Positions 11,123 to 27,038 of a stretch of 64,000 nt of DNA are shown piece after piece (the stretch's first letter is position 1; every line of letters begins with the position of its first letter). The notes under the pieces were generated by a model. The model did not search any database. It saw only the letters and a list, made by a program, of their open reading frames with translations, and was not told the DNA's origin. Both the position numbers and the translations under genes were made by a program. The DNA is from an uncultured Candidatus Saccharibacteria bacterium (GTDB lineage: Bacteria > Patescibacteriota > Minisyncoccia > Phycocordibacterales > UBA918), in the NCBI GenBank assembly GCA_964601615.1, contig CAZRNZ010000002.1, positions 73,339 through 137,338 on the forward strand. The letters run 5' to 3'.

Positions 11123-12313
11123 TTATAACCCTAGATTATAAAGCCAAAGACTGTTATTGGTTTTATTTAAGAAGAGCAACTTTTTCCCATCCTCTGTAAC
11201 AAATAACTTTATTACATCAATATCAAATCCCGCTAAATTTGGTAAGTAAGATAATATTTTAGCTGAACCATCAGTATTTTGTTGCCATAGTGTGTCTGAA
11301 GAAGTTATTTCACCTTTGTACCATTTTGATAAACTTTCTCTGTTGCCATCGTTTATTTGTGAGGAAAGTGCACAAATAAAACCTGTTAATTCACTATGGG
11401 TACATTTTTCGGGCACTGCTAATACTGAGGCATTAGCTAAGCTGTTATTTTCAATATTCTGAATAGCGTTAGTAATTTTCTGTCTATCTGTATCAAAGCC
11501 AGAATATAAAATGTTATTACCTGATTTGTCGATTACAGCAGAAAAACTATACAAATTTTTCTGGTTAATTCTCTGGGTATTTCCATTAATTATCTCGTAT
11601 ACCCCCCCTTTAAACCAAGGAGAGTTTTTGTTCGTTAAATAAGTTTTATTGTCAGACCAAAAAACTTCTATTTCAGTCATTGGTGTTGTCCATAGATCCT
11701 GAGTAAGATTCTCTTGCCAGTCATACTGTCGGGCAAATGTTTGATTGTTTTCTATAGTTGTATATCTAATGTCACCAATATTATTAAAAGAGAAATTACT
11801 GCTGTTTATGGGCAGTTTAGTGCTTTTAACAGTATTACCCCCAAGGGCGACAATAGTTGGTATTATGTCTGTTACCTGCTCTGATTCTAGAACAACCAAT
11901 TCACCGCTCAAATTAAATATTGCATTAACTGTTTTCCCTGTGGTATTTCCTGAAATTCTTGATTCACTATTATTATCTAAATTTATTTCATATACATGCC
12001 CAGTTCCTCTTTCAACGTAGCGAATTCTCTCTGGTTTTTCGGGGGTTGTAGTGGATGCTTCAATTTTGGGTAGATAAACGAAACCCGCAACCACTTTAGT
12101 GGTAAGTTGTCTTAATTGATTTTGATTGTCTGCCAGCTGAGTGTTTCCTGAATTTGTTTCTGTTTGTATTTCCGTCGGTTGTCCAATTATTCCTAGATCA
12201 GTAAAAACACTATTAATATTATTAGGTGTTCCAAATAAAAGTAAATAACCCCAAAGTAGTAGCAAGGTAACTACTACAAAAATACCAATTCCTACTAGTA
12301 TTCTTTGGGTCAT
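11123..12313 (-). CDS. Membrane-anchored extracytoplasmic protein, last gene of the T4SS-like operon
   Basis: N-terminal TM helix then an about 360-aa N/T/S-rich domain. 2-bp gap to the upstream gene. Confidence 0.5.
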   Translation of the reverse strand: MTQRILVGIGIFVVVTLLLLWGYLLLFGTPNNINSVFTDLGIIGQPTEIQTETNSGNTQLADNQNQLRQLTTKVVAGFVYLPKIEASTTTPEKPERIRYVERGTGHVYEINLDNNSESRISGNTTGKTVNAIFNLSGELVVLESEQVTDIIPTIVALGGNTVKSTKLPINSSNFSFNNIGDIRYTTIENNQTFARQYDWQENLTQDLWTTPMTEIEVFWSDNKTYLTNKNSPWFKGGVYEIINGNTQRINQKNLYSFSAVIDKSGNNILYSGFDTDRQKITNAIQNIENNSLANASVLAVPEKCTHSELTGFICALSSQINDGNRESLSKWYKGEITSSDTLWQQNTDGSAKILSYLPNLAGFDIDVIKLFVTEDGKKLLFLNKTNNSLWLYNLGL

Positions 12314-12314
12314 A

Positions 12315-12935
12315 TTAGTTTGGGTTACATTTATAAATAGTTGCTAATTGGGTACCGGTCCAGTAATTTTCATCGCGCGCTACATTTCCCTGGTTTTGGT
12401 TACATAGCTGAGTCAGTTCACTTACAGTTCGATCAAAACAGCCTGAGTCACTATTTTGACAGTGACTGAGTATGGATGTGGAATGAACAAATTCGTGAGT
12501 GTAAAACTCATCGCGAAGTGGCGTATTATTAACCACGCCAGTATTTTCTGAACCAGATTGAGTTGTTGTTGGTGCTAGTTCACTAGTTTCAAGTTCTTCT
12601 ATTATTGTTAGCCTAGTAAGATTGGGGTTAATTGTATTTAAAATAGTTACTGCTCCAAGGATTATCAGAAGTCCAAGTAGGGCATTTTTTATACGCTCTT
12701 TAGCGGCAGATTTTTTTGTTACCAGGTCTGATAACATATATTCAGCTCCTGCCCAAATAAGCATTCCTACAGCTGCAATTGCACCTAAAGCAATTGCAGC
12801 CATATATATAGCTTGAATATAATTACTAGAAGAAACTTCACCTGTAATAAAGGGTATTTGTTGAAAAGTAGTTATTTCATTGGCGCTTACTATAGTTGGT
12901 GCTAATAATATAGCTAAAAATAATATCTTTCTCAT
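12315..12935 (-). CDS. VirB2/TrbC-like pilin candidate with a Cys-containing C-terminal extension
   Basis: Signal peptide (MRKILFLAILLAPTIVSA), two hydrophobic helices separated by a short basic loop (classic VirB2/TrbC topology), then an about 100-aa tail with 4 Cys. Assigned by architecture and operon context. Confidence 0.5.
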   Translation of the reverse strand: MRKILFLAILLAPTIVSANEITTFQQIPFITGEVSSSNYIQAIYMAAIALGAIAAVGMLIWAGAEYMLSDLVTKKSAAKERIKNALLGLLIILGAVTILNTINPNLTRLTIIEELETSELAPTTTQSGSENTGVVNNTPLRDEFYTHEFVHSTSILSHCQNSDSGCFDRTVSELTQLCNQNQGNVARDENYWTGTQLATIYKCNPN

Positions 12936-13681
12936 AGATTTAAATTGAAAATACCCTTAGTAATTTCCGATAGATTTTGTTGACTACGAACATTTAATAT
13001 AACCTCAGTTGTTTCTTTATTAAAAGAATCGCTTCTAATTAAAGAAACTTCTCGCCAGTCATTTGGATTAAGTACAATATTTACACCCTGAGATTGCCAT
13101 GATCCTAGTGTATTAGAAAGAAGTGATTGAGTACCAAAGAAAAATGGCTCCGCTCGTACAGAAGTTTCGTTTCCTATTAAAATAAGATTTTTACCAATTG
13201 AATTTTGATTAAGACCACGAAGTTCATTATTTTCATAAAATAAGATCTTAGGAGAAGAAGTTTTTATGTATTCAGAAGCTGTACCAATGTTTTGCCCAGA
13301 AGCTGTACTTACTGTAACACTGATTAACACTTCCCTATTTGTAGCAGGTAAGTTTGTTATAACAAAAGGTGCTGATGTAGTTATGTTTTGGCTACCGATC
13401 CTCCAATTAAATCTACTCGCCTGAATATTTGTTTCTGGAATAGCAGTTATCTTTACAGAACTACCTACTATTGGCTCACTTCTACCTTTATAAAAATATG
13501 GTTTGTAAGTATTGGCTTCAACTATAAGGTCAATTGTCGAAAGACTCACAGTTGCTGTACTTGTTGCAATGTTTTGTCCATTATTAATGGGTAAAACAAA
13601 ACTTTGTTGAGCATGAGCAAAATTTATATTAAATAATATTGCTAAAAATAATATATATTTTTTTTTGCCTGTTGATGCCAT
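12932..13681 (-). CDS. Secreted protein (signal peptide), T4SS-like operon
   Basis: N-terminal signal peptide, beta-rich composition, 4-bp overlaps on both sides. Confidence 0.5.
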   Translation of the reverse strand: MASTGKKKYILFLAILFNINFAHAQQSFVLPINNGQNIATSTATVSLSTIDLIVEANTYKPYFYKGRSEPIVGSSVKITAIPETNIQASRFNWRIGSQNITTSAPFVITNLPATNREVLISVTVSTASGQNIGTASEYIKTSSPKILFYENNELRGLNQNSIGKNLILIGNETSVRAEPFFFGTQSLLSNTLGSWQSQGVNIVLNPNDWREVSLIRSDSFNKETTEVILNVRSQQNLSEITKGIFNLNL

Positions 13682-13694
13682 TCAGTAAATGATA

Positions 13695-14327
13695 TCACAG
13701 AGATTTATCACGAAGGAACATATATAAAGACCAAAGCCACATTATTGGGAATAAGTTTATTATTGGGCAAAGAAGAAGAACTAAACAAACTGATATCACC
13801 AAAATACTAAATCCTCCCAAAACATCTTCGCCACTTCCTGTATAAAGTGCTGCAGCTACGAACCAAGTTACTAAACCGCATATCATAGAGCCAGCAATTC
13901 CTATCAAAAATACTCCGGTGCCAGCTTCTTGAATTGAGTTAAATGTTACCCAGTTAAGAGCTGACATTACCCAATTTGATTCTGTTTCTGACATTAACCC
14001 TAGACCAATTAAGGCTATCAGAGCTAGACATAGTTGGATTATATAAATAATCACCGTATATGAAATAGAGGTGGTAAAAAGTTTGAAAGATGCTGCATCA
14101 GCATTTAATTTGTCACTAATCTTCACAAAATCTTTTACTTCCTGAGCAGTGTTTTGATTTGGAAAGAACTTAACCTTTTTAGGTGAAATACGTGGGGAAC
14201 TATTTCGTTGAGAGATGTTTGGACGACTCGGTTTTTTTAAACGTGAGTCATTACTAAAACCGCTCCCTGATTTAGTTGAACCACTAGGAGTCGGGGTCTT
14301 TTTTACTACAACGTTTTTTATGACCAT
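13695..14327 (-). CDS. Polytopic membrane protein with a basic S/P/K-rich N-terminal tail, T4SS-like operon
   Basis: About 80-aa disordered basic N-terminus followed by 4 predicted TM helices. Confidence 0.5.
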   Translation of the reverse strand: MVIKNVVVKKTPTPSGSTKSGSGFSNDSRLKKPSRPNISQRNSSPRISPKKVKFFPNQNTAQEVKDFVKISDKLNADAASFKLFTTSISYTVIIYIIQLCLALIALIGLGLMSETESNWVMSALNWVTFNSIQEAGTGVFLIGIAGSMICGLVTWFVAAALYTGSGEDVLGGFSILVISVCLVLLLCPIINLFPIMWLWSLYMFLRDKSL

Positions 14328-14330
14328 AGG

Positions 14331-16139
14331 CTAGTCTCGCAACGATTTAAGTTCAGCGCGAGCTTTTTTGATCTGAAGAAGTTGAGAAGGGTCAGATGTA
14401 ATAATTTGATCTTCTGTATAACTTGCTATCACTTTGATAGCAACATGTTTTAGTCCCACAAAGAATATACCCTCCCCCACGTTACTCTCTAGCAGCAAAA
14501 GTTTCTCTTCGTCAGTAAGATTGAAAGTTTTTTGTACGCTATCTATTGCGGTTGGTGATTGCTTCATTAAAAATTGTAATGAAGAGTTGGTAATCATAGG
14601 AACTCCGTAAGGGGAGCGCAAAAAGTCGCCCACATCTTGTGTGATAGTAGCAATACCAAGATAGTACTTTCGGCCACGTTTAGCTAGAGAAAACAGGAAG
14701 GAAGCAGTGTCTTCGCTTTTCATCATCCACCAAGCTTCATCGATAACCATCAAACGTTTTGCTAGGCGACGTCTAATCATATTCCAGATATGGTTTGTGA
14801 TGATATACATAGCAATTGTTTTGAGTTCATCTTCCATGTCACGCAGGGAGAAAACAATAAACTTTTGGTTTATATCCACATTAGTTGGATGATTCATGAA
14901 GCCAGACCAGGTTCCGCTAGTGTATTTTTGTAAGCGAGCGATAAGTGAATTACTTCCCTCCATTCCTGCTAATACCATTTCAAAATCTGAAAGAAGTGGA
15001 TACTCCATACCTGTCCAATCAGCATCTCCGGTAATGTCTTTAAGTGCGTAAACTTCGCGAATAGCTTGGTCAACAATAGTTTCCTCTTCAGGTGAAAGTC
15101 CGCCTAGCATTAAACGCATCAAGCCAATTAACTCAATGATATGAGAGCGTAGAATATCGTTTGGATCTTCATCTTCTTGCGGGTCTGGCAGGTCAAATGG
15201 GTTTATATGGTGTGGACTAGACAGAGAGATGTTGAAAAAACGTCCTCCTGTAGCTTCAGCTAAGTACTCATATTCCCTTTCAGGGTCGAGGACAATAACT
15301 TCTGTACCAAACATTAAAGAACGAAGAATCTCTAATTTAATAGCATAAGATTTTCCAGCACCAGAAGTAGCGAATGTTACTGAATTATAGTTTGTTAAAG
15401 AAAACCTATCGAATAATACAAGTGATGAGTTGTGACGGTTTATACCGTAAAGTATGCCGTTGTCACTAGTTAGGTCAAAAGATGTAAAAGGAAAAAAGCT
15501 AGAAAGTGGTGAAGAATTAAATTTACTATGAACTAAAAGCTCATCAGTCATTGTTGGTAAAACACTTTTTATACCTTGCTCTTGCTGGAATAATGCTGGT
15601 TTAATATAAACCAGTCTAGAATCTAGAATTCCTTTTACTTCTGATTCAGTTTTATTTAAAATATCTTCGTCTTGTCCGTAAACTGCGATATATAAACCTA
15701 CATCAAAAAGCTTCTCCTCAGCTTGTTGAAGTTTGTCGCGCAAATCTTCTAGGTTTCTATAAGCAGCTTCAAGTTGAGGGTCGCGCACCATCCCCTTGCT
15801 TTCGTTTGCATTGATTTGACTTTGTACCTCAGCTACTTTCTTTTGAAATTTCTTTAAAGTATCCGCAGTGTCTATCGGATGAATCATTATTGATACGTCC
15901 ATTTCTTTTTCTAAGTTTAAGATAGGTTCGAGCCATCCGTCATTTAAATAACGAGGATAAGATACTGCAAAAAAAACACGGGCATTTTGACCACTTATAT
16001 TTATATGACGTGGTTGCACAGAGACTGCTGATGGAGCAACAACATCTTCTAGTGTCATTAGGGCACTTTTAGTATCTAGAACATTATTATCACTAATTGC
16101 ACCAGATTTATTTTGTTTTATTAAATCAAAAATTCCCAT
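14331..16139 (-). CDS. virB4: VirB4/TrbE/CagE-family type IV secretion ATPase (C-terminal ATPase domain)
   Basis: Walker A FATSGAGKSYAIK, Walker B RLMVIDEAWWMM (the DEAW signature of VirB4), and a downstream IATITQDVGDF motif. Confidence 0.85.
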   Translation of the reverse strand: MGIFDLIKQNKSGAISDNNVLDTKSALMTLEDVVAPSAVSVQPRHINISGQNARVFFAVSYPRYLNDGWLEPILNLEKEMDVSIMIHPIDTADTLKKFQKKVAEVQSQINANESKGMVRDPQLEAAYRNLEDLRDKLQQAEEKLFDVGLYIAVYGQDEDILNKTESEVKGILDSRLVYIKPALFQQEQGIKSVLPTMTDELLVHSKFNSSPLSSFFPFTSFDLTSDNGILYGINRHNSSLVLFDRFSLTNYNSVTFATSGAGKSYAIKLEILRSLMFGTEVIVLDPEREYEYLAEATGGRFFNISLSSPHHINPFDLPDPQEDEDPNDILRSHIIELIGLMRLMLGGLSPEEETIVDQAIREVYALKDITGDADWTGMEYPLLSDFEMVLAGMEGSNSLIARLQKYTSGTWSGFMNHPTNVDINQKFIVFSLRDMEDELKTIAMYIITNHIWNMIRRRLAKRLMVIDEAWWMMKSEDTASFLFSLAKRGRKYYLGIATITQDVGDFLRSPYGVPMITNSSLQFLMKQSPTAIDSVQKTFNLTDEEKLLLLESNVGEGIFFVGLKHVAIKVIASYTEDQIITSDPSQLLQIKKARAELKSLRD

Positions 16140-16142
16140 ATC

Positions 16143-16781
16143 CTATTTATTACTTGGTGGATTTTTCTTAACATCACCGGGGTTGAAAATATGATAATAA
16201 AGCTCAACCAATTCTTCATTTTTTAGTAAAATGCTGCGGACGCCAACCGAAGAAAGACCCTGTTCTACCAATGATAATCTTTGTTCAAGTTGAGTTTTAT
16301 GTTCGGTAAAATTTTTGTCATCAAAATAAACATTTTTTTGACCGCCTAGCATCTCTTTAAAATTACCAAGATTCTTTTGTAAATTAGCAGAGGTTGGAGT
16401 ATAGGGAATGATAACAAAAAAACTTTTTGACATTACATCAACTTCATTTGTGAAGTTTTTAATAAATTGAATATATTCTCTGAGTTGAATTTTCATCAAT
16501 TCATTGTTTTGACTATCTTCCCTAGAGGCTAGAAGGTTTAGATATGGCTGAATATCGAGCCTACGAGATTGAATATAAATCTGAATTGAAAAATCTAAGG
16601 TGTTTAAGAAAGTTTGAAATTGGCGGAGAATAGCTTCTTGTTCGTCATATGATTTAAGGGCAAAGTTAATTGAAGACGCTAAAAGAACCATATTCATTTG
16701 GCCGTTCTTCAAAATAACCACGTCATCTCTAACGTCGCTTACTGGTACAAAATTCTGAGTAGTATTTTTGTCTGCTGCCAT
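16143..16781 (-). CDS. Soluble protein directly upstream of virB4, candidate split-off VirB4 N-terminal domain
   Basis: 212 aa, 3-bp gap to virB4. Combined 212+602 aa matches typical full-length VirB4 (about 800 aa). Inference. Confidence 0.45.
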   Translation of the reverse strand: MAADKNTTQNFVPVSDVRDDVVILKNGQMNMVLLASSINFALKSYDEQEAILRQFQTFLNTLDFSIQIYIQSRRLDIQPYLNLLASREDSQNNELMKIQLREYIQFIKNFTNEVDVMSKSFFVIIPYTPTSANLQKNLGNFKEMLGGQKNVYFDDKNFTEHKTQLEQRLSLVEQGLSSVGVRSILLKNEELVELYYHIFNPGDVKKNPPSNK

Positions 16782-16813
16782 CGTTACAATATAATAACAT
16801 TATCTGTTCAGCG

Positions 16814-17233
16814 TTAACGATTATCTTTTTGAATAGCTTTCATTTCAAGGCGTCGAGAAAGAGAAGCAATATTGTTTTCAGTAGTTGTTGGTGGGATATA
16901 TGAAGACGTGCTTACTGGAGGTGTGTTTTCGGAAGATGTATTATAAATCCCACTCCCCTTTTTGCGCCAGAAATATAATTTATTACCTTGGAAATATCGC
17001 ACAGCCGCCTCAAGGAAGTTAGAAAAAGGTCGGTTGTTTACTGGATAAAAAGCTAACAAAAAAGTTAGTGCTAAAACTGGAATACCAAGTAAAACAAAGA
17101 TAATAAAAGGAGTAAAAAAGAAAAGTACTGCTGATAATCCAACTCCTCCAGCAATATAAACAAATTGCTTCCAGGTCAGTGGACCAAAAATCTTGTCTTC
17201 TATTTCAATAAATTGTGGAACTTCGAATCTCAT
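16814..17233 (-). CDS. VirB3-like small membrane protein (two TM helices)
   Basis: 139 aa with a hairpin pair of TM helices (FVYIAGGVGLSAVLFFFTPFIIFVLLGIPVLALTFLLAFYPV) located just upstream of the VirB4 module, as for VirB3/TcpE/ConD. Confidence 0.5.
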   Translation of the reverse strand: MRFEVPQFIEIEDKIFGPLTWKQFVYIAGGVGLSAVLFFFTPFIIFVLLGIPVLALTFLLAFYPVNNRPFSNFLEAAVRYFQGNKLYFWRKKGSGIYNTSSENTPPVSTSSYIPPTTTENNIASLSRRLEMKAIQKDNR

Positions 17234-17793
17234 TTTTTGATTATATCATCTTGTGAAGAGCGATATACACCTTCTTCCTCAGATGTCTGACTCTTAAATG
17301 TGCCGTAACTATGAGCTCGGCTTATTTCTACATCTTCTGCAAAAGTCCTAATTGGTTTTACTGCATTCTGAATAGTCTCTTTTACTTCAGGAGTAATTTT
17401 TGGTGAAGTATTTTCTGTTCCTTCTGTTATTGTAGGCTTTATTTCTTTAGAGGTTTCGTCTTCTAATAACTCTGCAGCAATTTTTAACTCTCCGTCAACA
17501 ATTGAAAAAAGTTCTTCATCCAAAAAAAGAGAAATTTCTCTAGCAATAGATATTTCTGTAGGTAATGATTCTGTTAATCTCTCTATAAGACCTTTTCTGG
17601 TAAGAAAAAGATATAAAATCAAATCTATTTCCATTTGTAAGCCAGATTTTTGTTCCTCACTTAATGTGAACTGACTTACAGTCTTTTCTAATACAACCTC
17701 AACTGTGCCATATTGAAATAGCTCAATAATACTAAGTGGTAGCGCTTGGTATCTTTGTTGCATTAATTCTGGTAGTTGAGAGTTGTTGTACAT
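17230..17793 (-). CDS. Acidic soluble hypothetical protein, T4SS-like operon
   Basis: 187-aa ORF with a 4-bp overlap to the downstream gene. Confidence 0.45.
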   Translation of the reverse strand: MYNNSQLPELMQQRYQALPLSIIELFQYGTVEVVLEKTVSQFTLSEEQKSGLQMEIDLILYLFLTRKGLIERLTESLPTEISIAREISLFLDEELFSIVDGELKIAAELLEDETSKEIKPTITEGTENTSPKITPEVKETIQNAVKPIRTFAEDVEISRAHSYGTFKSQTSEEEGVYRSSQDDIIKK

Positions 17794-17803
17794 ATTTATC
17801 TTT

Positions 17804-19825
17804 TTACTTACCCTTTATCTTCTTTTTGTATTCGTTTCTGATTTCTGTTGCAGCATTGTCATTCTGTGATTTATCTCTTCCTGTAAAGAGGTTGGATATA
17901 ACATTTTTATTTTCAACTGTTGTAGCGTAACCCCCTGCTTCTTTGTCTGCTTTCTTTTCTGCGTTTGCTAAATCTTTTTTTGTTTCTGCTATCTCCTTCT
18001 GTAAATCACTCATTTTAGATTCGATTTCAGATTGTTTTTGCGCGTCATCTCTAGCTGAGGCACGTTCAAGTTGAAGTTCAGCAAAAGCAGACATTTTATT
18101 CTTCAACTCCTTCTTTTTGTCGTCTATTTCTTTATTAGTGCCAGAAGCTATATTGGTTTTAGAGCCAGTTTGACGGCGGAATCTTTCTGCACTAAGCGCT
18201 TCAGTTTGTTTACTTTTTTCATCTTCCAACTCTTCTCCTTTAGCGCGAAATGACTCTATTTGTGCTCTAATCACCTGCCGCTCTCCTTCATCTTTGGATT
18301 CAGATAATGATTTACGTTTATCTTGTATAAGTCTCTTGTTATCCTTAATTGCTTGATCTACAGCATCAACTTCTGTTTGTAAACGTGCAATTACTGGATC
18401 GCTACCACTCACCTCGCCAAGATTTTTGGCATAATTAACCTCTTTATCAAGAACTTGTTTAGTTGTTGTAGCGTAACCACCTTTTACTCCCTCACCAAGA
18501 CCCATCTTTGTACTTGTTGATCTATTTATATTACGAGCATCAAAACTACTGTCACCTAATTTTGTTGTGACATTAAGTGCGCGTCTACCTGCCCAACCAC
18601 TAACTCCTCCGCCAGAAGCTCGATCTCTTCCCTTGTCACTATCGGCGTAGTTTTGTGACCAGCGTCCAACTGTACCTCTTAATCCACCGGCTGCTAAGCC
18701 TGCTGGATTAACATTATTGGCTACATTTATTGCTAGATTAGCACCAGTGTCACCAAATTTTCTGGCTACATAAAGAGCTGCCCAGGCAAAAGCAGCGACA
18801 AAGAAAGAGGATACAATAAAACCAAAAGTATCCATGTCCCCTTGTGCTCTATTGGCCATCAATGTTTCTAGGGCTCTAAGTGATACTAGAAGCATAAAAA
18901 GATATGCTGGACCCATTATGGTTTGGTTTATTAACCTTTTCCACCAAGAGCTACTTAAGTTTTTAAAATTTGGTAAAACCCAACCCAAAAACATAATTGG
19001 CGAAAACATCATTAAGAATATCAGGTAGATAAAGCGTGAAAACATTAGAAGTGCCCCAGCCGCAAAAGTGAAGCCCATAATAATGAACATCAAACAAATT
19101 GCTATACCAATACCAAAAGCATCTCCCCAATTATATCCGCCAGATTGTTGGTCCTCGTCACTGTTGGATATGTAGTTACTAATAGCAAGACTTCGACTAC
19201 TAATAGATTCAATATCTGTAGCAGCTAGGAATCTGTCGTGAATTCCATATACTGGCATACCCATAACGGTAGCTGTTATGCCTGCATCGTCATCTAAGAC
19301 TAATACATTTCTTATTTCAGCAGCAGTGATATTACCAAAATCAATTACTATTTGAGCAGCGTAAAGACTAAAGTTTATTAATAAAGCGGCAATTAATAAA
19401 CTACCTAATGTTCTTTTTGCCTTACCCTCGTCTATTTGTAGAATAATTCTGAATCCTATAAAAATTATGCCAAATATGAATAGAAGATTGAATAAATCTC
19501 TAATAAATTCCCAAACGTACTGAATAACGTCGTCTAGCTGAAGTGTTGAAACTAGACCTGGCATGTTGAAGACAAATAAAGATAAGCTGATGTCTAGTAG
19601 TGAACCACCAATCCAAAGAAAAAAGCCACCTATAGTCGTAAGTGATACATAGATAACCCTACCGATATTGTCAAAGTTTTCAGCCATATTACCCGCATCA
19701 CCAGCTGTACCTGTAGTAGTCGTAGTTGCATAAGCGGTAAATGGACTCAGTAGCAAGGAAAAAGCAAAAAACACTAACAAAAAAATTAGCATTGAAATTA
19801 GTGTTTTTTTTCTTAACCCAAACAT
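17804..19825 (-). CDS. VirB6/TrbL-like polytopic membrane protein with a C-terminal coiled-coil charged tail
   Basis: Signal/TM N-terminus, 6 or more TM helices over about 380 aa, then an about 290-aa K/E/D-rich predicted coiled-coil (KEIDDKKKELKNKMSAFAELQLERASARDD...). Confidence 0.6.
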   Translation of the reverse strand: MFGLRKKTLISMLIFLLVFFAFSLLLSPFTAYATTTTTGTAGDAGNMAENFDNIGRVIYVSLTTIGGFFLWIGGSLLDISLSLFVFNMPGLVSTLQLDDVIQYVWEFIRDLFNLLFIFGIIFIGFRIILQIDEGKAKRTLGSLLIAALLINFSLYAAQIVIDFGNITAAEIRNVLVLDDDAGITATVMGMPVYGIHDRFLAATDIESISSRSLAISNYISNSDEDQQSGGYNWGDAFGIGIAICLMFIIMGFTFAAGALLMFSRFIYLIFLMMFSPIMFLGWVLPNFKNLSSSWWKRLINQTIMGPAYLFMLLVSLRALETLMANRAQGDMDTFGFIVSSFFVAAFAWAALYVARKFGDTGANLAINVANNVNPAGLAAGGLRGTVGRWSQNYADSDKGRDRASGGGVSGWAGRRALNVTTKLGDSSFDARNINRSTSTKMGLGEGVKGGYATTTKQVLDKEVNYAKNLGEVSGSDPVIARLQTEVDAVDQAIKDNKRLIQDKRKSLSESKDEGERQVIRAQIESFRAKGEELEDEKSKQTEALSAERFRRQTGSKTNIASGTNKEIDDKKKELKNKMSAFAELQLERASARDDAQKQSEIESKMSDLQKEIAETKKDLANAEKKADKEAGGYATTVENKNVISNLFTGRDKSQNDNAATEIRNEYKKKIKGK

Positions 19826-19829
19826 AAAT

Positions 19830-21347
19830 TTACTGACTCAATAAGATACCATCATAGTCAAACTCTCCCCCACAATTTTGTTTACTTATGGCGGTATCAT
19901 ACTTGAACCTATCTACCATCTGAGAGAATTCAAGGTCTATATAGGATATCTTTAATTCTTGATTTTTGTAAGCGGTTTGGAATAAACCTTGAGTTTTATA
20001 GGCATTATAAGATACTAAAGCAGCATTTTTAGTTGTTGCATCGCTAGATGAATACTGTGTATCAAGGGTTGTAAGGATTGAGATTGTAGTAGATGCGACA
20101 CTGGTACCTGCCAGACCGTTTTCTCTTGCCTTTTTTAGTTCATCTGTTAACTCCATGTCAAAACAAGGAGAAAATTCTTCTTTGTTTTGATCTAATTTTG
20201 TTTGCAGTGCTGAAACTTCATTTAGTATATGTTGTTGAAGTTGTAAATACTCTTGTTCTATCGCCAAAGCTTCTTTTATTACGTTTGAATTATTAACTTG
20301 GTATTGCGTAATATTATCGGTTATTAATGCTTCGACATAAGAAAGTGCTCCATCTGGTCCAAATATACTCTGGCTATATATTGGGTTTCCAGTTAATCCG
20401 AGAACTCCAGTTAGACCCTGCAAAGCTTGGTTGGCAAGATTGTTCATCAAATTAGAAGCAATTTCATTAAATTCATCCATGTTCAACATCTGCAAACCTG
20501 GAAGTTCGACCAAGTTGAAAGAGACCATATCAGCCGCCAATGATGGAGGATTTACAATACGACAGTCAGTTCTATTTCCGCCGTTTGCTGTTTCAACATC
20601 TGTACATACTCGCTGAGGCAACATACCTCTCGTGTTACTTATTAGATCACGCTCATTTTGAATAGCATTGGCCTGTCTTCTATTTAAAGTATTTTGACCT
20701 TCATAAACAGCACACATATCATCACGACAGTTTACAAAATCACCTAAAAGTCTATGTGAAATACTTTTGTATTGATTCGTATCCCCTTCTGTTGACTGAA
20801 GCACTCCACCATTAACTCCTTTTTCCCGCTGGCTTAAGTAACCATTATAAAGAGCAGTTCTCACACGGTGTGCTTTCTCTGGGTCAGATTGACCACTAGT
20901 GTCTAGACCTTCTGAGAAAATAAAATCACCAGCAACTTGGTCATTTATATTTTGGTAATACTCAGAATAATTTTGGACAAACGGAATTTGCCCATCTTGA
21001 CCTGGTTGTTGACCGCCTAGCCATTTGAGTAATTCTCCAGTAAGTTGTTGTTGCATCTGCTTGGCCATTCCCCAAGCCGCTGGGTCAAGAACTTGTTCCT
21101 TGAAGAGTAATTGTTCAATTGCGTCAGCAGTTTGTCCTCCTGTAATAGAGGATAAGGTTGTTTTAATCGCTGTTGTAATAGCTGATTCAGAAGCATCACT
21201 GATTATGCGAACATTTTGCACTCCTGAACCAAATATATTTCCTGCTATACTGCCAAGTAGATCCCCTAGTTGCGCTTCGGCCTTCAGGTTTGTAAAACCA
21301 AAAGTTAGACAAAATATAGTTAGGAAGATTGTTATTTTTGTTTTCAT
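19830..21347 (-). CDS. Secreted Cys-containing protein, T4SS-like operon
   Basis: Signal peptide MKTKITIFLTIFCLTFGFTNLKAEA, 505 aa, multiple Cys pairs. Confidence 0.5.
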   Translation of the reverse strand: MKTKITIFLTIFCLTFGFTNLKAEAQLGDLLGSIAGNIFGSGVQNVRIISDASESAITTAIKTTLSSITGGQTADAIEQLLFKEQVLDPAAWGMAKQMQQQLTGELLKWLGGQQPGQDGQIPFVQNYSEYYQNINDQVAGDFIFSEGLDTSGQSDPEKAHRVRTALYNGYLSQREKGVNGGVLQSTEGDTNQYKSISHRLLGDFVNCRDDMCAVYEGQNTLNRRQANAIQNERDLISNTRGMLPQRVCTDVETANGGNRTDCRIVNPPSLAADMVSFNLVELPGLQMLNMDEFNEIASNLMNNLANQALQGLTGVLGLTGNPIYSQSIFGPDGALSYVEALITDNITQYQVNNSNVIKEALAIEQEYLQLQQHILNEVSALQTKLDQNKEEFSPCFDMELTDELKKARENGLAGTSVASTTISILTTLDTQYSSSDATTKNAALVSYNAYKTQGLFQTAYKNQELKISYIDLEFSQMVDRFKYDTAISKQNCGGEFDYDGILLSQ

Positions 21348-21349
21348 AA

Positions 21350-22207
21350 TTACTCTATTTTTATAAAGCGAGAAGCAATATCATTATTATTCCATTTTAT
21401 TCCCAATTTATCTAAAGAAAGATAAAGATTAGATATTGCCAAATAAAGAGCTTCTGTATCTGACTGATATCTTTGGAGTCTTGCCATTGCTGGAAAAGCA
21501 TCATTAAATAGATTTTTAAATGCTTTGATATCTTTCAATATTGCGTTGTAAACATTTATTAGTGAAAGATGTTCTTTAACTAGAGATGGAGGTACTTCAG
21601 TTGCCAACATTGCAGAAATCATTTTTTCGTAAGATTCGATAATTGGATCGAGATCATTTAGTATCTCAGCCTTGTTTCTATTAAGAGCCCGGTTCACTAT
21701 TAGTAGTTCATTGTCTGTATTTGCTGGAGGAGCAAAATCAAAAGTAATGGCTGCAACTTTATTTCCGTAAGTACGAAGAATTTCTTGGTTATTACTTGAA
21801 CCAACTTTAATATCACTTCTGTCATATTGGATATCTAAACTTTCTTGTCTTACTTGCGAAAGAAGAGAGTCGGTATTTTGATTACCTGATGTGTTACCTA
21901 TATATGATTGGGTCGCTAAAGTTACAGCCAGCGCTGCAGTTTTTGTCATGGTGGCTGAATTATTCTCCCCTCCTAAATGAATGGTTGGGATATTTAAAGA
22001 TTCTTGCCAGTCTGGAATTCCATCAAAGTTTTTGTCTGTAATGTTAATAAAAGTTCTAGTGTTGCTCACTAGTGTTGGTGCAACTTTATTTGTTTCTTCT
22101 CTATCCTCTTTATATATTGATGCTACAAAAGAAGTACCAACCAAAGTTAGTCCAAACAAGGAAGCGGCTGCGATTTTCGGATTTATTTTTATTCCCATCT
22201 TATCCAC
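21350..22207 (-). CDS. Secreted or membrane-anchored protein, first gene of the T4SS-like operon
   Basis: N-terminal hydrophobic segment. The ORF-track start at 22207 is a GTG; the first ATG is at 22198. Confidence 0.5.
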   Translation of the reverse strand: MDKMGIKINPKIAAASLFGLTLVGTSFVASIYKEDREETNKVAPTLVSNTRTFINITDKNFDGIPDWQESLNIPTIHLGGENNSATMTKTAALAVTLATQSYIGNTSGNQNTDSLLSQVRQESLDIQYDRSDIKVGSSNNQEILRTYGNKVAAITFDFAPPANTDNELLIVNRALNRNKAEILNDLDPIIESYEKMISAMLATEVPPSLVKEHLSLINVYNAILKDIKAFKNLFNDAFPAMARLQRYQSDTEALYLAISNLYLSLDKLGIKWNNNDIASRFIKIE

Positions 22208-22210
22208 AAA

Positions 22211-22250
22211 TTATAACAGCCGCCAAATTTATTTGGCGGCTGTTATCAAC
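22211..22250. terminator. Perfect hairpin, rsmA terminator, abutting the first start codon of the T4SS-like operon
   Basis: gttataacagccgccaaat / atttggcggctgttatcaac, an about 19-bp stem. Confidence 0.6.
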
Positions 22251-22255
22251 TTTAT

Positions 22256-23071
22256 TTAAGATAAATCCTTAATTTCTTTACAAATCGCTAACCACTTTTC
22301 TAGTGGTACATCCTCACCTCTTATATCTAGTGATAAATCTAGTTTTAAAAATAATTCTTCTAATTTTTTACGCTCGTAATTTTTAGATAGGTTTCCAATA
22401 AGTTGCTTTCTCTTTGAACCAAAACCTAAATGGATTATTTCAAAAAAAAGTTCAGCCGAAACTTCCGATAGCTTGTCTTTGTTTATTTCGTAAACTGCCA
22501 CAATAGCTGAATCAACTTTTGGCGGTGGGGTGAAGTGTCCCTTACCAACTGATTTAATGTATTTAGGTTTTCCAAATACTTGTATTGATAATGATAGAAG
22601 TGACTCCTTCTCCCCTTTCATAACTCCGGTCGTCGCTCTTTTACCAACTTCTTTTTGTACCAAAAAAACTAGTGTGTTTGGTTGAATATCGCCAGCTAAA
22701 AATGTTCTAAATAATTGTCCAGTAATGTAGTAAGGAATATTTGCTACTGCCTTAAAAGATTTGTTCGGCAAATTTAAATCACGCAAATCAAACTGGCGAA
22801 CATCAGCATTATGCACAACAAGTTGTCCATTTGAAATTTCTTCAGCAAAAGTTTTTTCTAAAACTTCAATTGCTCTGCTGTCAGTTTCGAGTGCAATAAC
22901 TTTTGCACCTCGTTTCAAAATTTCTTTTGTGAGCGCACCAGTTCCTGGTCCAACTTCTACGACCAAATCATCTTCAGTAAGTTCTCCGGCATCACACATC
23001 CAACGCGGAACAACATCACTGTTCAAAAAGTGTTGCCCAAGAGATTTTTTTGTTTGAAATTTTTCTGTCAT
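22256..23071 (-). CDS. rsmA: 16S rRNA (adenine1518/1519-N6)-dimethyltransferase
   Basis: KKSLGQHFL N-terminus and the SAM-binding VVEVGPGTGALT motif. Confidence 0.9.
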   Translation of the reverse strand: MTEKFQTKKSLGQHFLNSDVVPRWMCDAGELTEDDLVVEVGPGTGALTKEILKRGAKVIALETDSRAIEVLEKTFAEEISNGQLVVHNADVRQFDLRDLNLPNKSFKAVANIPYYITGQLFRTFLAGDIQPNTLVFLVQKEVGKRATTGVMKGEKESLLSLSIQVFGKPKYIKSVGKGHFTPPPKVDSAIVAVYEINKDKLSEVSAELFFEIIHLGFGSKRKQLIGNLSKNYERKKLEELFLKLDLSLDIRGEDVPLEKWLAICKEIKDLS

Positions 23072-25946: not shown

Positions 25947-27038
25947 GTGGCTTTTTTGAAGAATAGAAAATTTACTGTACTCGACGGTTTTTTTCTTTGT
26001 GCACTAGTCATGATTCCTCTCTCAGTTCAGGCGGGGGTATTTTCTAAAGTCACTGGTATCTTCAATAGTAACGAAGTTGTCTATGATAAGTATGCAACAA
26101 ATTCCTCTGCTAGTGACCTGAAGCTTTTGACCGCTCGTGTGAACCCTGAAACCACTTCTCATCAGGGAGGAGGAGATGTTTTTGTAGATGAAGGCGCTCT
26201 TCTTTCTGGTGGGCAGTTTAATATGGATACAGTCTCTGGTTCAGCAAGTAGTGGTGAGATTAGTATCCACACAGTTAGACCTTGTACTGAATCTGGTTGT
26301 GAAACTTTGTCTCATATTGCTGAAATGTATGGAGTTTCGGTAAATACTATTCTTTGGGCTAACGACATTAGTGATCCAAAGAGTGTTCGTGCTGGAGACA
26401 CTTTAGTAATATTGCCTATTACTGGTGTTCGACACATTGTAAAAGACAAAGAAACATTAGCTTCTATTGCTAAAAAGTATGGTGCAGAAACCTCAGAACA
26501 GGTTGCTGCCATGACGAGTGACATTATGGCTTACAACCGCTTGGCATCAGCTAGTGAAATTAGCGTTGGTGATACAGTTGTGATTCCTGGAGGAGTTATG
26601 CATACCGCTGCGGTATCTAGTACGATAGCAAAAAGTAGCTCATCCTCATCTTCTTCTGCATCTCGTTCAACTGCAACTACAGCTCGTAGTTCTGGAGCAG
26701 GTTTTGTTAATCCTTTACCAGGTGGAGTTAGGACTCAGGGTATCCATGGTTACAATGCAGTCGATATTGCTGCCGCTTCCGGTACTCCAATTAGGGCTGC
26801 CGCTGACGGTGAAGTAATCGTTTCTCGTAGTAGTGGTTGGAATGGTGGCTATGGAATCTATATTGTTATCAAACATGCTAATGGTGCTCAAACTTTGTAT
26901 TCACATATGTCTGGTGTAACTGTTGGGTCTGGTGCGCGTGTAACTGCAGGTGAAACAATCGGTTACGTTGGTAACACTGGTAAGTCTACCGGTCCCCACC
27001 TACACTTCGAGGTTCGTGGTGCGACCAATCCTTTTTAG
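25947..27038 (+). CDS. Cell-wall endopeptidase with two LysM domains and a C-terminal peptidase M23 domain
   Basis: Signal/TM N-terminus, two LysM repeats, Ser-rich linker, and M23 motifs HxxxD and HLHFEV. Confidence 0.88.
   Translation: MAFLKNRKFTVLDGFFLCALVMIPLSVQAGVFSKVTGIFNSNEVVYDKYATNSSASDLKLLTARVNPETTSHQGGGDVFVDEGALLSGGQFNMDTVSGSASSGEISIHTVRPCTESGCETLSHIAEMYGVSVNTILWANDISDPKSVRAGDTLVILPITGVRHIVKDKETLASIAKKYGAETSEQVAAMTSDIMAYNRLASASEISVGDTVVIPGGVMHTAAVSSTIAKSSSSSSSSASRSTATTARSSGAGFVNPLPGGVRTQGIHGYNAVDIAAASGTPIRAAADGEVIVSRSSGWNGGYGIYIVIKHANGAQTLYSHMSGVTVGSGARVTAGETIGYVGNTGKSTGPHLHFEVRGATNPF

What the first reader, a model, noticed from the sequence alone, without database searches (positions are those of the whole stretch)
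12315..12935. VirB2/TrbC-like pilin candidate carrying a 100-aa Cys-containing C-terminal extension
The architecture is a cleavable signal peptide, two hydrophobic helices separated by a short charged loop (AIYMAAIALGAIAAVGMLIWAGAEYMLS ... LLGLLIILGAVTILNTI), and then a tail with four cysteines. The first three elements match the T4SS pilin fold. The tail is not typical and could be an adhesin or tip module, or a propeptide that is removed.
Basis: inference. Interest (0 to 1): 0.55.

Follow-up and report, generated by a model that had tools for sequence, protein, structure and literature searches.

The report
Patescibacterial T4SS pilin with cysteine tail
This gene encodes the VirB2-like "pilin" of the type IV secretion system that ultrasmall Patescibacteria keep next to their replication origin, and its 100-residue cysteine-bearing tail, unusual for classical pilins, is the rule in this lineage and probably forms a fast-evolving, disulfide-stapled knob exposed on the cell or pilus surface.

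Summary
ORF 12315..12935 (minus strand, 206 aa) has a signal peptide (predicted cleavage after A18), two hydrophobic helices (38-68 and 85-103) joined by a basic loop, and a tail with Cys159/166/178/203.

It scores above Pfam's cut-off for PF18895 T4SS_pilin. It lies in a co-directional T4SS cluster (VirB6-like, PrgI/VirB3, TrsD, VirB4, 210 aa, 249 aa, pilin, 396 aa) beside yidC-rnpA-rpmH-dnaA. This is the arrangement already published for Patescibacteria.

The tail is not an oddity of this gene. Among 160 single-core relatives, 155 have tails of at least 50 aa, and 152 of those 155 carry an even, non-zero number of Cys. Cys frequency is 4.7% in tails against 0.26% in cores.

AlphaFold2 predicts a floppy Thr/Glu/Ser-rich linker (107-140) followed by a compact beta-alpha-alpha-beta-beta domain (141-206, pLDDT 95). 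That domain has no significant structural match. Between orthologues the core is 55-77% identical and the tail only 8-28%.

Best reading: a surface-displayed, disulfide-stapled, rapidly diversifying ectodomain on the T4SS pilin. Pilus formation, tail retention and adhesin function are inferred, not shown. The gene is a new member of a known family. I found no published description of the tail.

The parts
12315..12935 (-). Complete pilin CDS: 206 aa plus the stop codon at 12315-12317.
   Evidence: ORF list and translation. PF18895 scores above its gathering cut-off. An identical protein, P0001, is in the public collection.
12882..12935 (-). Sec-type signal peptide, aa 1-18. Predicted type I signal peptidase cleavage is VSA|N.
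   Evidence: Hydrophobic window at aa 1-24. P13 and A18 are invariant in alignment A1. The cleavage itself is inferred.
12825..12881 (-). Mature N-terminal segment, aa 19-37 (NEITTFQQIPF...). Acidic, predicted to be outside the cell.
   Evidence: F24 is nearly invariant and P28 invariant. 0 K/R and 2 D/E.
12732..12824 (-). Hydrophobic helix 1, aa 38-68.
   Evidence: Kyte-Doolittle profile. AF2 helix 36-68. Start of the PF18895 match.
12684..12731 (-). Basic loop, aa 69-84 (SDLVTKKSAAKERIKN). Predicted cytoplasmic in the membrane form. It corresponds to the basic, lumen-facing domain III of F-type pilins.
   Evidence: 5 K/R against 2 D/E. A78 and I82 are invariant, S69 and K79 nearly invariant. 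The F-pilin domain III analogy comes from PMC10939261.
12618..12683 (-). Hydrophobic helix 2 plus the conserved cap motif LNTINPNL, aa 85-106. The canonical pilin module ends here.
   Evidence: L86, L87, G88, I91, L93, L99, T101, N103 and P104 are invariant in A1. AF2 helix 72-102. The PF18895 match ends at aa 102.
12516..12617 (-). Low-complexity Thr/Glu/Ser-rich linker, aa 107-140. Predicted to be disordered.
   Evidence: pLDDT 47-66 over residues 101-140. Composition: T8, E5, L4, S3, N3. 5-28% identity to homologues.
12318..12515 (-). Tail domain, aa 141-206. Compact beta-alpha-alpha-beta-beta fold with Cys159, Cys166, Cys178 and Cys203. The proposed disulfides are 159-166 and 178-203.
12932..13681 (-). 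Upstream partner gene: a 249-aa secreted protein of unknown family. Its stop overlaps the pilin start (ATGA).
   Evidence: ORF list. Conserved immediately upstream of the pilin in 11 of 12 other genomes. No Pfam, NCBIfam, PHROG or PDB match.
11123..12313 (-). Downstream partner gene: a 396-aa protein with an N-terminal membrane anchor. It starts 1 nt after the pilin stop.
   Evidence: ORF list. Conserved next to the pilin in 10 of 12 other genomes. No family match.
13695..14327 (-). 210-aa multi-pass membrane protein lying between VirB4 and the 249-aa gene.
   Evidence: ORF list. Conserved position. No family match.
14331..16139 (-). VirB4-type ATPase, 602 aa.
   Evidence: PF19044 (E 7e-27), AAA_10 and DUF87. 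83-91% identical in related genomes.
16143..16781 (-). TrsD/TraC-like protein, 212 aa. It corresponds to a VirB4 N-terminal domain encoded as a separate gene.
   Evidence: NF045975 VirB4_plasma positions 100-252 (E 2e-13) and NF041427 TrsD. PF26593 precomputed hit.
16814..17233 (-). PrgI / VirB3-like protein, 139 aa.
   Evidence: PF12666, 40.9 bits against a cut-off of 27.
17804..19825 (-). VirB6/TrbL-like polytopic membrane protein, 673 aa.
   Evidence: Precomputed weak PF19590 TrbL_3 hit. Weak NF046089 CD3337/EF1877 hit.
19830..22207 (-). First two genes of the cluster (285 aa and 505 aa, both with N-terminal hydrophobic leaders), function unknown. Together with the 187-aa gene at 17230..17793 they complete the 11-gene co-directional block 11123..22207.
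   Evidence: ORF list. Same order in L001 and L002. A hairpin at 22213-22246 separates the block from ksgA.

Best explanation
The gene encodes the single VirB2-like pilin subunit of the chromosomal, origin-proximal type IV secretion system of a Patescibacterium (Candidate Phyla Radiation).

Proposed mechanism:
1. The precursor is exported by Sec and cut after Ala18.
2. The two hydrophobic helices insert as a hairpin. The basic loop (aa 69-84) faces the cytoplasm, and both the N-terminus and everything after helix 2 lie outside.
3. Outside, a flexible Thr/Glu/Ser-rich linker of about 34 residues carries a 66-residue beta-alpha-alpha-beta-beta domain. Two disulfides staple it (Cys159-Cys166 and Cys178-Cys203).
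4. When the VirB4-driven machine extracts pilins from the membrane and stacks them as in VirB2/TraA pili, the basic loop lines the lumen and the C-terminus points outward. Every subunit would then display this knob on the filament surface. If no filament forms, the knob sits at the end of a stalk long enough to cross the cell wall.
5. The knob evolves far faster than the rest of the machine. It most likely forms the exposed contact or specificity surface toward the host bacterium.

Shown: the ORF and its architecture; family membership; operon context and its conservation; clade-wide tails with an even number of Cys; the predicted fold; core-versus-tail divergence.

Inferred: the cleavage site; topology; disulfide pairing; retention of the tail in the mature protein; polymerisation; host-contact function.
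For: Family and context:
- PF18895 is above the gathering score.
- 56 of 57 homologues hit PF18895, and 39 of 57 hit TrbC weakly, best E 4.9e-5.
- NCBIfam gives a sub-threshold hit to the Mycoplasma ICE pilin-like family NF045849, E 5e-6.
- The gene lies in a block with VirB4, TrsD, PrgI and a VirB6-like protein next to yidC/rnpA/rpmH/dnaA.
- The order is the same in 11 of 12 other species genomes.
- This matches published descriptions: VirB2-like PF18895 pilins near virB4 and dnaA in Patescibacteria (PMC12102498), and pilins essential in S. epibionticum (PMC10633639; PMC12857230).

Topology:
- The charge distribution follows the positive-inside rule.

Extracytoplasmic, disulfide-bonded tail:
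- 152 of 155 tails of at least 50 aa have an even, non-zero Cys count. The binomial p against 50% parity is 1.4e-41.
- Cys frequency is 4.7% in tails, 0.26% in cores and 0.47% in long ORFs of the window.
- In 133 of 155 tails the last Cys lies within 6 residues of the C-terminus.
- C159 and C166 are lost together in homologues that keep C178 and C203.

Folded domain:
- Tail-only AF2 gives pLDDT 95.2 and pTM 0.80. The same domain reaches pLDDT 90-97 in the full-length model, where the linker has low confidence.

Exposure and rapid evolution:
- The core is 55-77% identical between homologues and the tail 8-28%.
- Against the closest syntenic genome, VirB4 is 91% and DnaA 89% identical. The pilin is 45% overall: 77% in the core and 26% in the tail.

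Outward-facing C-terminus in VirB2-type pili:
- In F pili the extreme C-terminus is surface-exposed and the basic domain III lines the lumen (PMC10939261).

Major rather than minor subunit:
- No second pilin-like ORF was found in the 64-kb window.
Against: - No pilus has been demonstrated for any Patescibacterial T4SS. The reviews call it a possibility.
- Direct homology to bona fide VirB2 is weak. This protein scores 14 bits against TrbC Pfam (cut-off 27.9). hhalign against eight annotated VirB2/TrbC proteins aligns in register, but only at E 0.052. A profile search of PDB sequences finds nothing.
- PF18895 was built largely on such CPR proteins, so the name 'pilin' is itself an inference.
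- The experimentally essential Saccharibacterial pilins have no tail, so the tail is not needed for core T4SS function.
- C-terminal trimming is known for P-type pilins (RP4 TrbC; from my own knowledge), so removal of the tail is conceivable.
- No Dsb- or VKOR-type oxidase was seen among the window proteins I scanned, and the rest of the genome was not available.
- The tail fold matches no known adhesin or lectin.
Confidence: 0.6

Rival explanations
1. Membrane-resident channel component rather than a filament subunit. The VirB2-like hairpin stays in the cytoplasmic membrane as part of a monoderm (MPF-FATA-like) T4SS channel. The linker spans the cell wall and presents the disulfide knob at the cell surface. 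No pilus is built.
For: - The rest of the machine is of the Gram-positive/Mollicutes type (PrgI, TrsD, split VirB4, CD3337/EF1877-like VirB6). Such systems normally have no pilus (PMC12102498).
- In Gram-negative 'uncoupling' mutants, pilin is needed for transfer without any pilus (PMC10939261).
- A 34-residue Thr/Ser/Glu-rich disordered linker resembles the wall-spanning stalks of Gram-positive surface proteins (inference).
Against: - The hairpin and basic loop typical of polymerising VirB2/TraA pilins are strongly conserved.
- Saccharibacteria carry arrays of up to 11 divergent pilin paralogues. These are easier to explain as exposed filament subunits.
- Nothing here distinguishes the two states.
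Confidence: 0.22
2. The tail is a C-terminal propeptide or chaperone-like pro-domain. It is cleaved at or near the invariant LNTINPN motif during pilin maturation, by analogy with the C-terminal processing of RP4 TrbC, and the mature pilin is the roughly 85-residue hairpin.
For: - The most conserved motif of the protein (L99, T101, N103, P104 invariant) sits exactly at the core/tail junction.
- Canonical VirB2 ends at the equivalent place.
- Tail-less pilins are functional in S. epibionticum.
- TrbC undergoes C-terminal trimming (from my own knowledge).
Against: - A discarded segment is not expected to be a confidently folded domain (pLDDT 95).
- Nor is it expected to keep paired cysteines clade-wide (152 of 155 even counts), with a C-terminal Cys conserved in 133 of 155.
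- Tail lengths vary from 50 to 370 aa.
- No TraF/S26-like peptidase was detected among the 11 operon proteins.
Confidence: 0.12
3. Minor or tip pilin, or dedicated adhesin. The protein caps or initiates a filament that is built mainly from another, tail-less pilin encoded elsewhere in the genome.
For:
- Tailed and tail-less PF18895 proteins both exist.
- One related locus (L005) has two pilin genes.
- Only 64 kb of the genome could be inspected.
Against: - It is the only pilin in the T4SS operon and in the window.
- It occupies the same single-copy slot in 10 of 12 related genomes.
- In VirB-type systems the tip protein is VirB5-like, not VirB2-like (PMC12857230).
Confidence: 0.05
4. Not a T4SS pilin at all. 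It is an unrelated small bitopic or hairpin membrane protein whose resemblance to VirB2 comes from hydrophobic-helix composition.
For: - Similarity to bona fide VirB2 is not statistically significant.
- Several homologues also give weak hits to unrelated membrane-protein Pfam families.
Against: - The position inside the T4SS operon is fixed across genomes in which the flanking surface genes have diverged to 24-46% identity.
- PF18895 is above threshold in this protein and is hit by 56 of 57 relatives.
- The alignment to VirB2 is in register, helix-loop-helix.
- An independent NCBIfam pilin-like model from Mycoplasma ICEs also hits it.
Confidence: 0.03

Closest known systems
Patescibacterial VirB2-like pilins, Pfam PF18895 T4SS_pilin (Quinonero-Coronel et al. 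2025, PMC12102498; essential pilin array SEML1_0014-0019 of Southlakia epibionticum, Wang et al. 2023, PMC10633639)
   Same: - The same Pfam family, scoring above threshold.
- The same signal peptide plus helix-loop-helix core.
- The same location next to virB4, within a relaxase-less and coupling-protein-less T4SS cluster beside dnaA.
   Different: - The studied Saccharibacterial pilins are 126-138 aa with essentially no tail, and occur as arrays of six divergent paralogues.
- Here there is a single gene with a 102-residue linker plus four-Cys domain.
- I found no mention of such tails in the papers I could search.
Canonical VirB2/TrbC/TraA conjugative pilins (PF04956; A. tumefaciens VirB2, RP4 TrbC, F TraA)
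   Same: - A cleaved leader, two hydrophobic helices and a short basic connecting loop.
- N- and C-termini on the same (outer) side.
- Encoded beside VirB3 and VirB4 homologues.
- In-register profile alignment of helix 1, loop and helix 2.
   Different: - Sequence similarity is below significance (14 bits against GA 27.9; hhalign E 0.052).
- Canonical pilins end 5-10 residues after helix 2 and have no extra domain and no disulfides.
- VirB2 and TrbC are cyclised head-to-tail, which a 100-aa tail would preclude unless it is removed.
- The host here is a monoderm with a Gram-positive-type T4SS.
Mbov_0395 family pilin-like conjugal transfer protein of Mycoplasma ICEs (NCBIfam NF045849)
   Same: - A hairpin protein of about 80 positions, encoded in an MPF-FATA-type T4SS of a wall-less or monoderm bacterium.
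- It aligns to aa 37-102 at E 5e-6.
- The neighbouring TrsD-like protein also matches the Mycoplasma ICE VirB4 N-terminal region.
   Different: - The score of 26.1 is below the family cut-off of 40.
- The model covers only the hairpin, and no tail is modelled.
- The ICE context includes conjugation functions, whereas here the cluster is chromosomal and has no relaxase.
Engineered C-terminal peptide fusions to F-pilin / Cys116-tagged TraA
   Same: They show that additions at the C-terminus of a VirB2-type pilin are tolerated and end up on the outer surface of the pilus (TraA.C116 labelling, PMC10939261). This is the geometry proposed here.
   Different: These are artificial, comprise a single residue to short epitopes, and are not natural 60-370-residue folded domains.

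Membership tests
PF18895 T4SS_pilin (Patescibacterial VirB2-like pilin) | Pfam HMM score at or above the gathering cut-off | tested here: met
   32.9 bits against 26.6, E 7.1e-8, aa 38-102 on profile positions 7-71 of 71. 56 of 57 homologues also match.
PF18895 T4SS_pilin (Patescibacterial VirB2-like pilin) | N-terminal signal peptide followed by two hydrophobic helices joined by a short basic loop | tested here: met
   Hydropathy, charge counts, AF2 helices 36-68 and 72-102, and conserved P13 and A18. No dedicated SignalP or TMHMM run was available.
PF18895 T4SS_pilin (Patescibacterial VirB2-like pilin) | Encoded in the virB4 neighbourhood of a Patescibacterial T4SS cluster, often near dnaA | tested here: met
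   The pilin is three genes from VirB4 and four genes from dnaA. The same holds in 11 of 12 related genomes. Relatives all come from Patescibacteria MAGs, except one labelled Gammaproteobacteria.
Canonical TrbC/VirB2 pilin (PF04956) | Pfam HMM score at or above the gathering cut-off | tested here: not met
   14.0 bits against 27.9, E 0.058. 39 of 57 relatives give sub-threshold hits, best E 4.9e-5.
Canonical TrbC/VirB2 pilin (PF04956) | Significant profile-profile similarity to annotated VirB2/TrbC proteins | tested here: inconclusive
   hhalign of A2 against A4 (8 plasmid VirB2/TrbC sequences): 47 columns aligned in register across helix 1, loop and helix 2, E 0.052. The PDB sequence profile search gave 0 hits.
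Canonical TrbC/VirB2 pilin (PF04956) | Small protein ending shortly after helix 2 (mature form about 70-80 aa), with no additional domain | tested here: not met
   The predicted mature protein is 188 aa, with 102 residues after the helix-2 cap. Annotated VirB2/TrbC proteins are about 98-121 aa in total.
Canonical TrbC/VirB2 pilin (PF04956) | Polymerises with phospholipid into an extracellular pilus, and (P/T-type) undergoes head-to-tail cyclisation | not testable with these tools
   This requires filament isolation, cryo-EM or mass spectrometry.
Mbov_0395 pilin-like conjugal transfer protein (NF045849) | NCBIfam equivalog score at or above the cut-off | tested here: not met
   26.1 bits against 40, E 5.1e-6, aa 37-102 on profile positions 10-76 of 80.
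Four-Cys tail subfamily (defined here, alignment A3) | C-terminal domain of 65-80 aa with the pattern C-x(6-16)-C-x11-C-x4-G ... C-x(1-5)-end | tested here: met
   All four Cys and G183 are invariant in 14 tails. The tail HMM scores 71.9 bits on this protein and at least 24 bits on 24 of 185 relatives.

The most novel reading that the evidence does not exclude
Many Patescibacteria outside Saccharimonadia may build a VirB2-type T4SS filament in which every subunit carries a hypervariable, disulfide-stapled ectodomain on a flexible stalk. This would be a 'decorated' conjugative-type pilus unknown in any characterised T4SS. The tail would take over, within a single gene, the host-range or antigenic-variation role that Saccharibacteria achieve with arrays of tail-less pilin paralogues. 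The conserved, equally fast-evolving 249-aa and 396-aa neighbours would be dedicated assembly or tip partners.
Probability: 0.3. Interest if true: 0.7.

Novelty: new member of a known kind. Interest (0 to 1): 0.4.

Why it matters
The Patescibacterial T4SS is essential for epibiotic growth in the one species tested. What it transports is unknown, and so is whether it makes a pilus.

If the pilin's exposed face in most lineages is a fast-evolving, disulfide-bonded domain, that domain is the obvious candidate for host recognition. It would also be a practical handle: an epitope for antibodies or nanobodies, and a site for labelling that could visualise the structure.

The even-cysteine rule is a simple, testable signature that the tail folds outside the cell. 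The contrast between a single tailed pilin and arrays of tail-less pilins suggests two evolutionary routes to surface diversity.

For this window specifically, the gene is one ordinary representative of thousands. The interest lies in the family-wide feature, not in this locus.

Tried and rejected
- Foldseek of the full-length model against PDB found no hit at E<=1e-3. The weak hits, about 60 residues long, were to winged-helix proteins.
- Foldseek of the tail against viral structures gave a best E of 0.11.
- The AFDB50 library was unavailable.
- A profile of the 57 homologues against PDB sequences gave 0 hits at E<=10.
- A tail-only profile (A3) against the 5.8-billion-protein collection found nothing at E<=0.01. 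I therefore could not tell whether the tail domain occurs outside pilins. The query is short and divergent, so this is a weak negative.
- tblastn of the hairpin core against 72,556 plasmids found no match.
- hhalign against bona fide VirB2 was in register but not significant.
- The Pfam scan found no family covering the tails.
- Pfam, NCBIfam, PHROGs and PDB searches of the 249-, 396-, 210-, 187-, 505- and 285-aa operon proteins gave nothing usable.
- The promoter scan showed no enrichment over shuffles and was not used.
- A search for paralogous pilins in the window found none.
- I looked for Dsb/VKOR-like oxidoreductases among 20 further window proteins and found none. The whole genome was not available.
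- Rfam and tRNA scans found only four tRNAs, which are irrelevant here.
- I considered and rejected a gene-fusion or frameshift artefact, because the architecture recurs in more than 150 independent sequences.
Full report
**1. The observation**

The ORF is real and sits at exactly 12315..12935, on the minus strand. It starts with ATG and encodes 206 aa.

Hydropathy windows above 1.4 are confined to aa 1-24, 38-68 and 80-107. The four cysteines are at 159, 166, 178 and 203, and there are none before residue 159.

The N-terminus has the anatomy of a Sec signal peptide: MRK, a hydrophobic core, Pro13, then Val16-Ser17-Ala18 before Asn19. Pro13 and Ala18 are invariant in an 18-sequence alignment.

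The connecting loop SDLVTKKSAAKERIKN has five K/R and two D/E. The mature N-terminus and the stretch after helix 2 are acidic. By the positive-inside rule the loop is cytoplasmic, and both the N-terminus and the tail are outside. Dedicated SignalP and TMHMM predictors were not available, so the cleavage site and topology are inferences from these features.

**2. What it is**

The protein scores 32.9 bits on Pfam PF18895 (T4SS_pilin, gathering score 26.6) over aa 38-102. It scores 14 bits (E 0.058) on TrbC/VirB2 PF04956. Of 57 homologues, 56 hit PF18895 and 39 give sub-threshold TrbC hits, best E 4.9e-5. NCBIfam adds a sub-threshold match to the Mycoplasma ICE 'pilin-like conjugal transfer protein' NF045849, E 5e-6.

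I tested the link to genuine VirB2 directly. I recovered eight annotated VirB2/TrbC genes from plasmids, aligned them and ran a profile-profile comparison. Helix 1, the loop and helix 2 align in register, but E is only 0.052. A PDB sequence-profile search finds nothing.

So membership of PF18895 is established. Homology to canonical VirB2 is plausible but not proven at the sequence level.

**3. Context**

The gene is the tenth of eleven co-directional, tightly packed genes spanning 22207 down to 11123:
- 285 aa and 505 aa proteins of unknown function
- a 673-aa VirB6/TrbL-like polytopic protein
- a 187-aa protein
- PrgI/VirB3 (PF12666)
- a 212-aa TrsD/TraC-like protein that matches the N-terminal part of Mycoplasma ICE VirB4
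- a 602-aa VirB4-type ATPase
- a 210-aa membrane protein
- a 249-aa secreted protein
- the pilin
- a 396-aa membrane-anchored protein

The stop of the 249-aa gene overlaps the pilin start (ATGA), and the 396-aa gene starts 1 nt after the pilin stop.

The block is followed by yidC, rnpA, rpmH and dnaA. No relaxase or coupling protein was recognised in the block.

This is the arrangement published for Patescibacteria: an MPF-FATA-related T4SS, usually without a relaxase, with VirB2-like PF18895 pilins, often next to dnaA (PMC12102498). Such pilins are essential in Southlakia epibionticum (PMC10633639; PMC12857230). Relatives found in GTDB species genomes are Patescibacteria MAGs (Nomurabacteria, Paceibacteria, Minisyncoccia and others), apart from one labelled Gammaproteobacteria.

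In 11 of 12 of those genomes the order 249aa-pilin(-396aa) is kept, and where the contig is long enough it lies between virB4 and yidC/dnaA.

**4. The tail**

Against canonical VirB2 (about 98-121 aa, ending a few residues after helix 2) that is true. It is also true against the S. epibionticum pilins, whose genes are 381-417 nt with PF18895 reaching almost to the end.

Within this protein's own clade it is the rule. An exhaustive HMMER search found 11,768 cluster representatives at E<=1e-3 and 1,634 at E<=1e-10. Combining its best 150 with the 57 earlier hits gives 185 sequences, of which 160 have a single recognisable core. For those:
- 155 have at least 50 residues after the LNTINP cap, with a median of 134 and a maximum of 370.
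- None of those 155 tails lacks cysteine.
- 152 of 155 have an even number of Cys. The binomial p against 50% parity is 1.4e-41.
- In 133 of 155 the last Cys is within six residues of the C-terminus.
- Cys frequency is 4.7% in tails against 0.26% in signal peptide plus core. The window's long ORFs have 0.47%.

This is the signature of extracytoplasmic disulfide-bonded domains.

About two dozen relatives share this protein's specific four-Cys domain, with the pattern C-x(6-16)-C-x11-C-x4-G...C-x(1-5)-end. Homologues with only two Cys have lost C159 and C166 together and kept C178 and C203. This argues for the pairings 159-166 and 178-203.

**5. Structure**

AlphaFold2 on the 57-sequence alignment gives the helical hairpin (36-68, 72-102). 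It also gives a low-confidence linker (pLDDT about 47-66 over 101-140) and a confident C-terminal domain (pLDDT 90-97).

The tail alone, with 14 sequences, gives pLDDT 95.2 and pTM 0.80. Its topology is beta(149-151), alpha(152-158), alpha(164-180) and a beta-hairpin (183-192, 197-205). Cys159 ends helix 1 of the domain and Cys166 starts helix 2. Cys178 is at the end of helix 2 and Cys203 is in the last strand. This is compatible with the pairings above, but I could not measure distances.

**6. Evolutionary rate**

Relative to this protein, homologues are 55-77% identical in the core but only 8-28% in the tail domain and 5-28% in the linker.

Against the closest syntenic genome (L002), identities are:
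- VirB4 91%, DnaA 89%, PBP 79%
- PrgI 75%, TrsD 76%
- pilin 45% overall (core 77%, tail 26%)
- 249 aa 40%, 396 aa 45%, 210 aa 43%, VirB6-like 47%

The parts predicted to be exposed therefore evolve fastest, and the tail fastest of all.

**7. Mechanism**

*Shown:* a PF18895 pilin in a conserved T4SS operon; a clade-wide even-Cys tail; a confidently predicted compact tail domain on a disordered linker; rapid tail divergence.

*Inferred:*
- Sec export and cleavage after Ala18.
- Hairpin insertion with the loop inside.
- Oxidative folding of the tail outside.
- Either extraction and stacking by the VirB4 machine into a VirB2-like tube, or residence in the membrane channel.

[quoted passage not shown] A C-terminal extension would therefore decorate the outside of a filament.

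A rough estimate with F-pilus geometry (from memory; inference) gives about 670 Å2 of surface per subunit at the tube wall and about 970 Å2 at 20 Å further out. A 66-residue domain has a cross-section of about 500 Å2. A knob on a 34-residue tether is therefore sterically plausible.

The most likely role of a fast-evolving exposed knob in an obligate epibiont is contact with, or specificity for, the host surface. I give the overall model 0.6.

**8. Rivals**

- Membrane-resident channel component with a wall-spanning stalk and no pilus (0.22).
- The tail is a propeptide cleaved at the invariant NTINPN junction, by analogy with TrbC trimming (0.12). This is disfavoured by the folded domain, the conserved Cys pairs and the absence of a recognisable maturation peptidase in the operon.
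- Minor or tip pilin (0.05). This is disfavoured because it is the only pilin in the operon and in the window.
- Not a pilin at all (0.03).

**9. Novelty and verdict**

The gene is a new member of a known, very large family in a published genomic context. On that score it is ordinary.

What I could not find in the literature available to me is any description of the tails. Most pilins of this clade carry cysteine-paired, hypervariable C-terminal ectodomains, whereas the experimentally studied Saccharibacterial pilins do not. That family-level feature is modestly interesting and directly testable. It is not specific to this window.

Interest 0.4. The most novel reading not excluded is a decorated VirB2-type pilus as the host-recognition organelle. 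I give it probability of about 0.3 and interest of about 0.7 if true.

Noticed in passing
window 11123..13681 (-); loci L002-L009, L012, L014: The pilin is always sandwiched in a conserved triad: a 249-aa secreted protein, the pilin, then a 396-aa membrane-anchored protein. Both partners lack any Pfam, NCBIfam, PHROG or PDB match. They evolve fast (24-46% identity where VirB4 is 83-91%) and are translationally coupled to the pilin. They are candidates for pilus assembly or tip partners.
   Followed up: partly
proteins P0058 (461 aa), P0073 (612 aa), P0097 (618 aa), P0090 (891 aa): Some representatives contain 3-4 pilin cores in one polypeptide. These could be genuine tandem fusions. They could also be adjacent pilin genes merged by gene calling, for example under an alternative genetic code in some CPR lineages.
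   Followed up: no
L005:2233-3216 and L005:4323-5312: One related genome has two long-tailed pilins (14 and 8 tail Cys) flanking the 396-aa gene, instead of a single pilin.
   Followed up: no
L011:9341-10363, L013:2-460, L014:1399-2157: More distant relatives (MAGs WY3.bin67 and WY3.bin123) appear to place the hairpin core near the C-terminus. Their tails are short (26-50 aa) and Cys-free, and a long region precedes the core. This is a different way of extending the pilin. The coordinates are stop-to-stop ORFs, so true starts are uncertain.
   Followed up: no
window 16143..16781 and 14331..16139 (-): VirB4 is split. The 212-aa TrsD/TraC-like protein matches positions 100-252 of the Mycoplasma ICE VirB4 model (NF045975). 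The 602-aa protein carries the ATPase domains.
   Followed up: partly
window 22213..22246: A 15-bp-stem (7 G-C pairs) perfect hairpin lies between ksgA (22256..23071, -) and the first T4SS gene (ends at 22207). It is probably the ksgA terminator and marks the start of a separate T4SS transcription unit.
   Followed up: no
window 25947..27038 (+): A 363-aa secreted protein about 4 kb from the T4SS block, with a Ser-rich linker and a C-terminal HLHFE motif typical of M23 peptidases (by eye). It may supply the VirB1-like wall-hydrolase function that the literature reports as LysM/M23 fusions in Patescibacteria. It was not scanned.
   Followed up: no
L010:7740-11119: A contig labelled as an uncultured Gammaproteobacteria MAG carries two adjacent long pilin-like ORFs (stop-to-stop 675 and 456 aa) related to this family. 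This is probably a mis-binned Patescibacterial contig.
   Followed up: no
window 12618..12640 (aa 99-106): The motif L-N-T-I-N-P-N-L at the outer end of helix 2 is the most conserved stretch of the whole protein (L99, T101, N103 and P104 invariant in 18 sequences). It lies exactly where canonical VirB2 ends. It could be a helix cap or hinge, or a processing site.
   Followed up: partly
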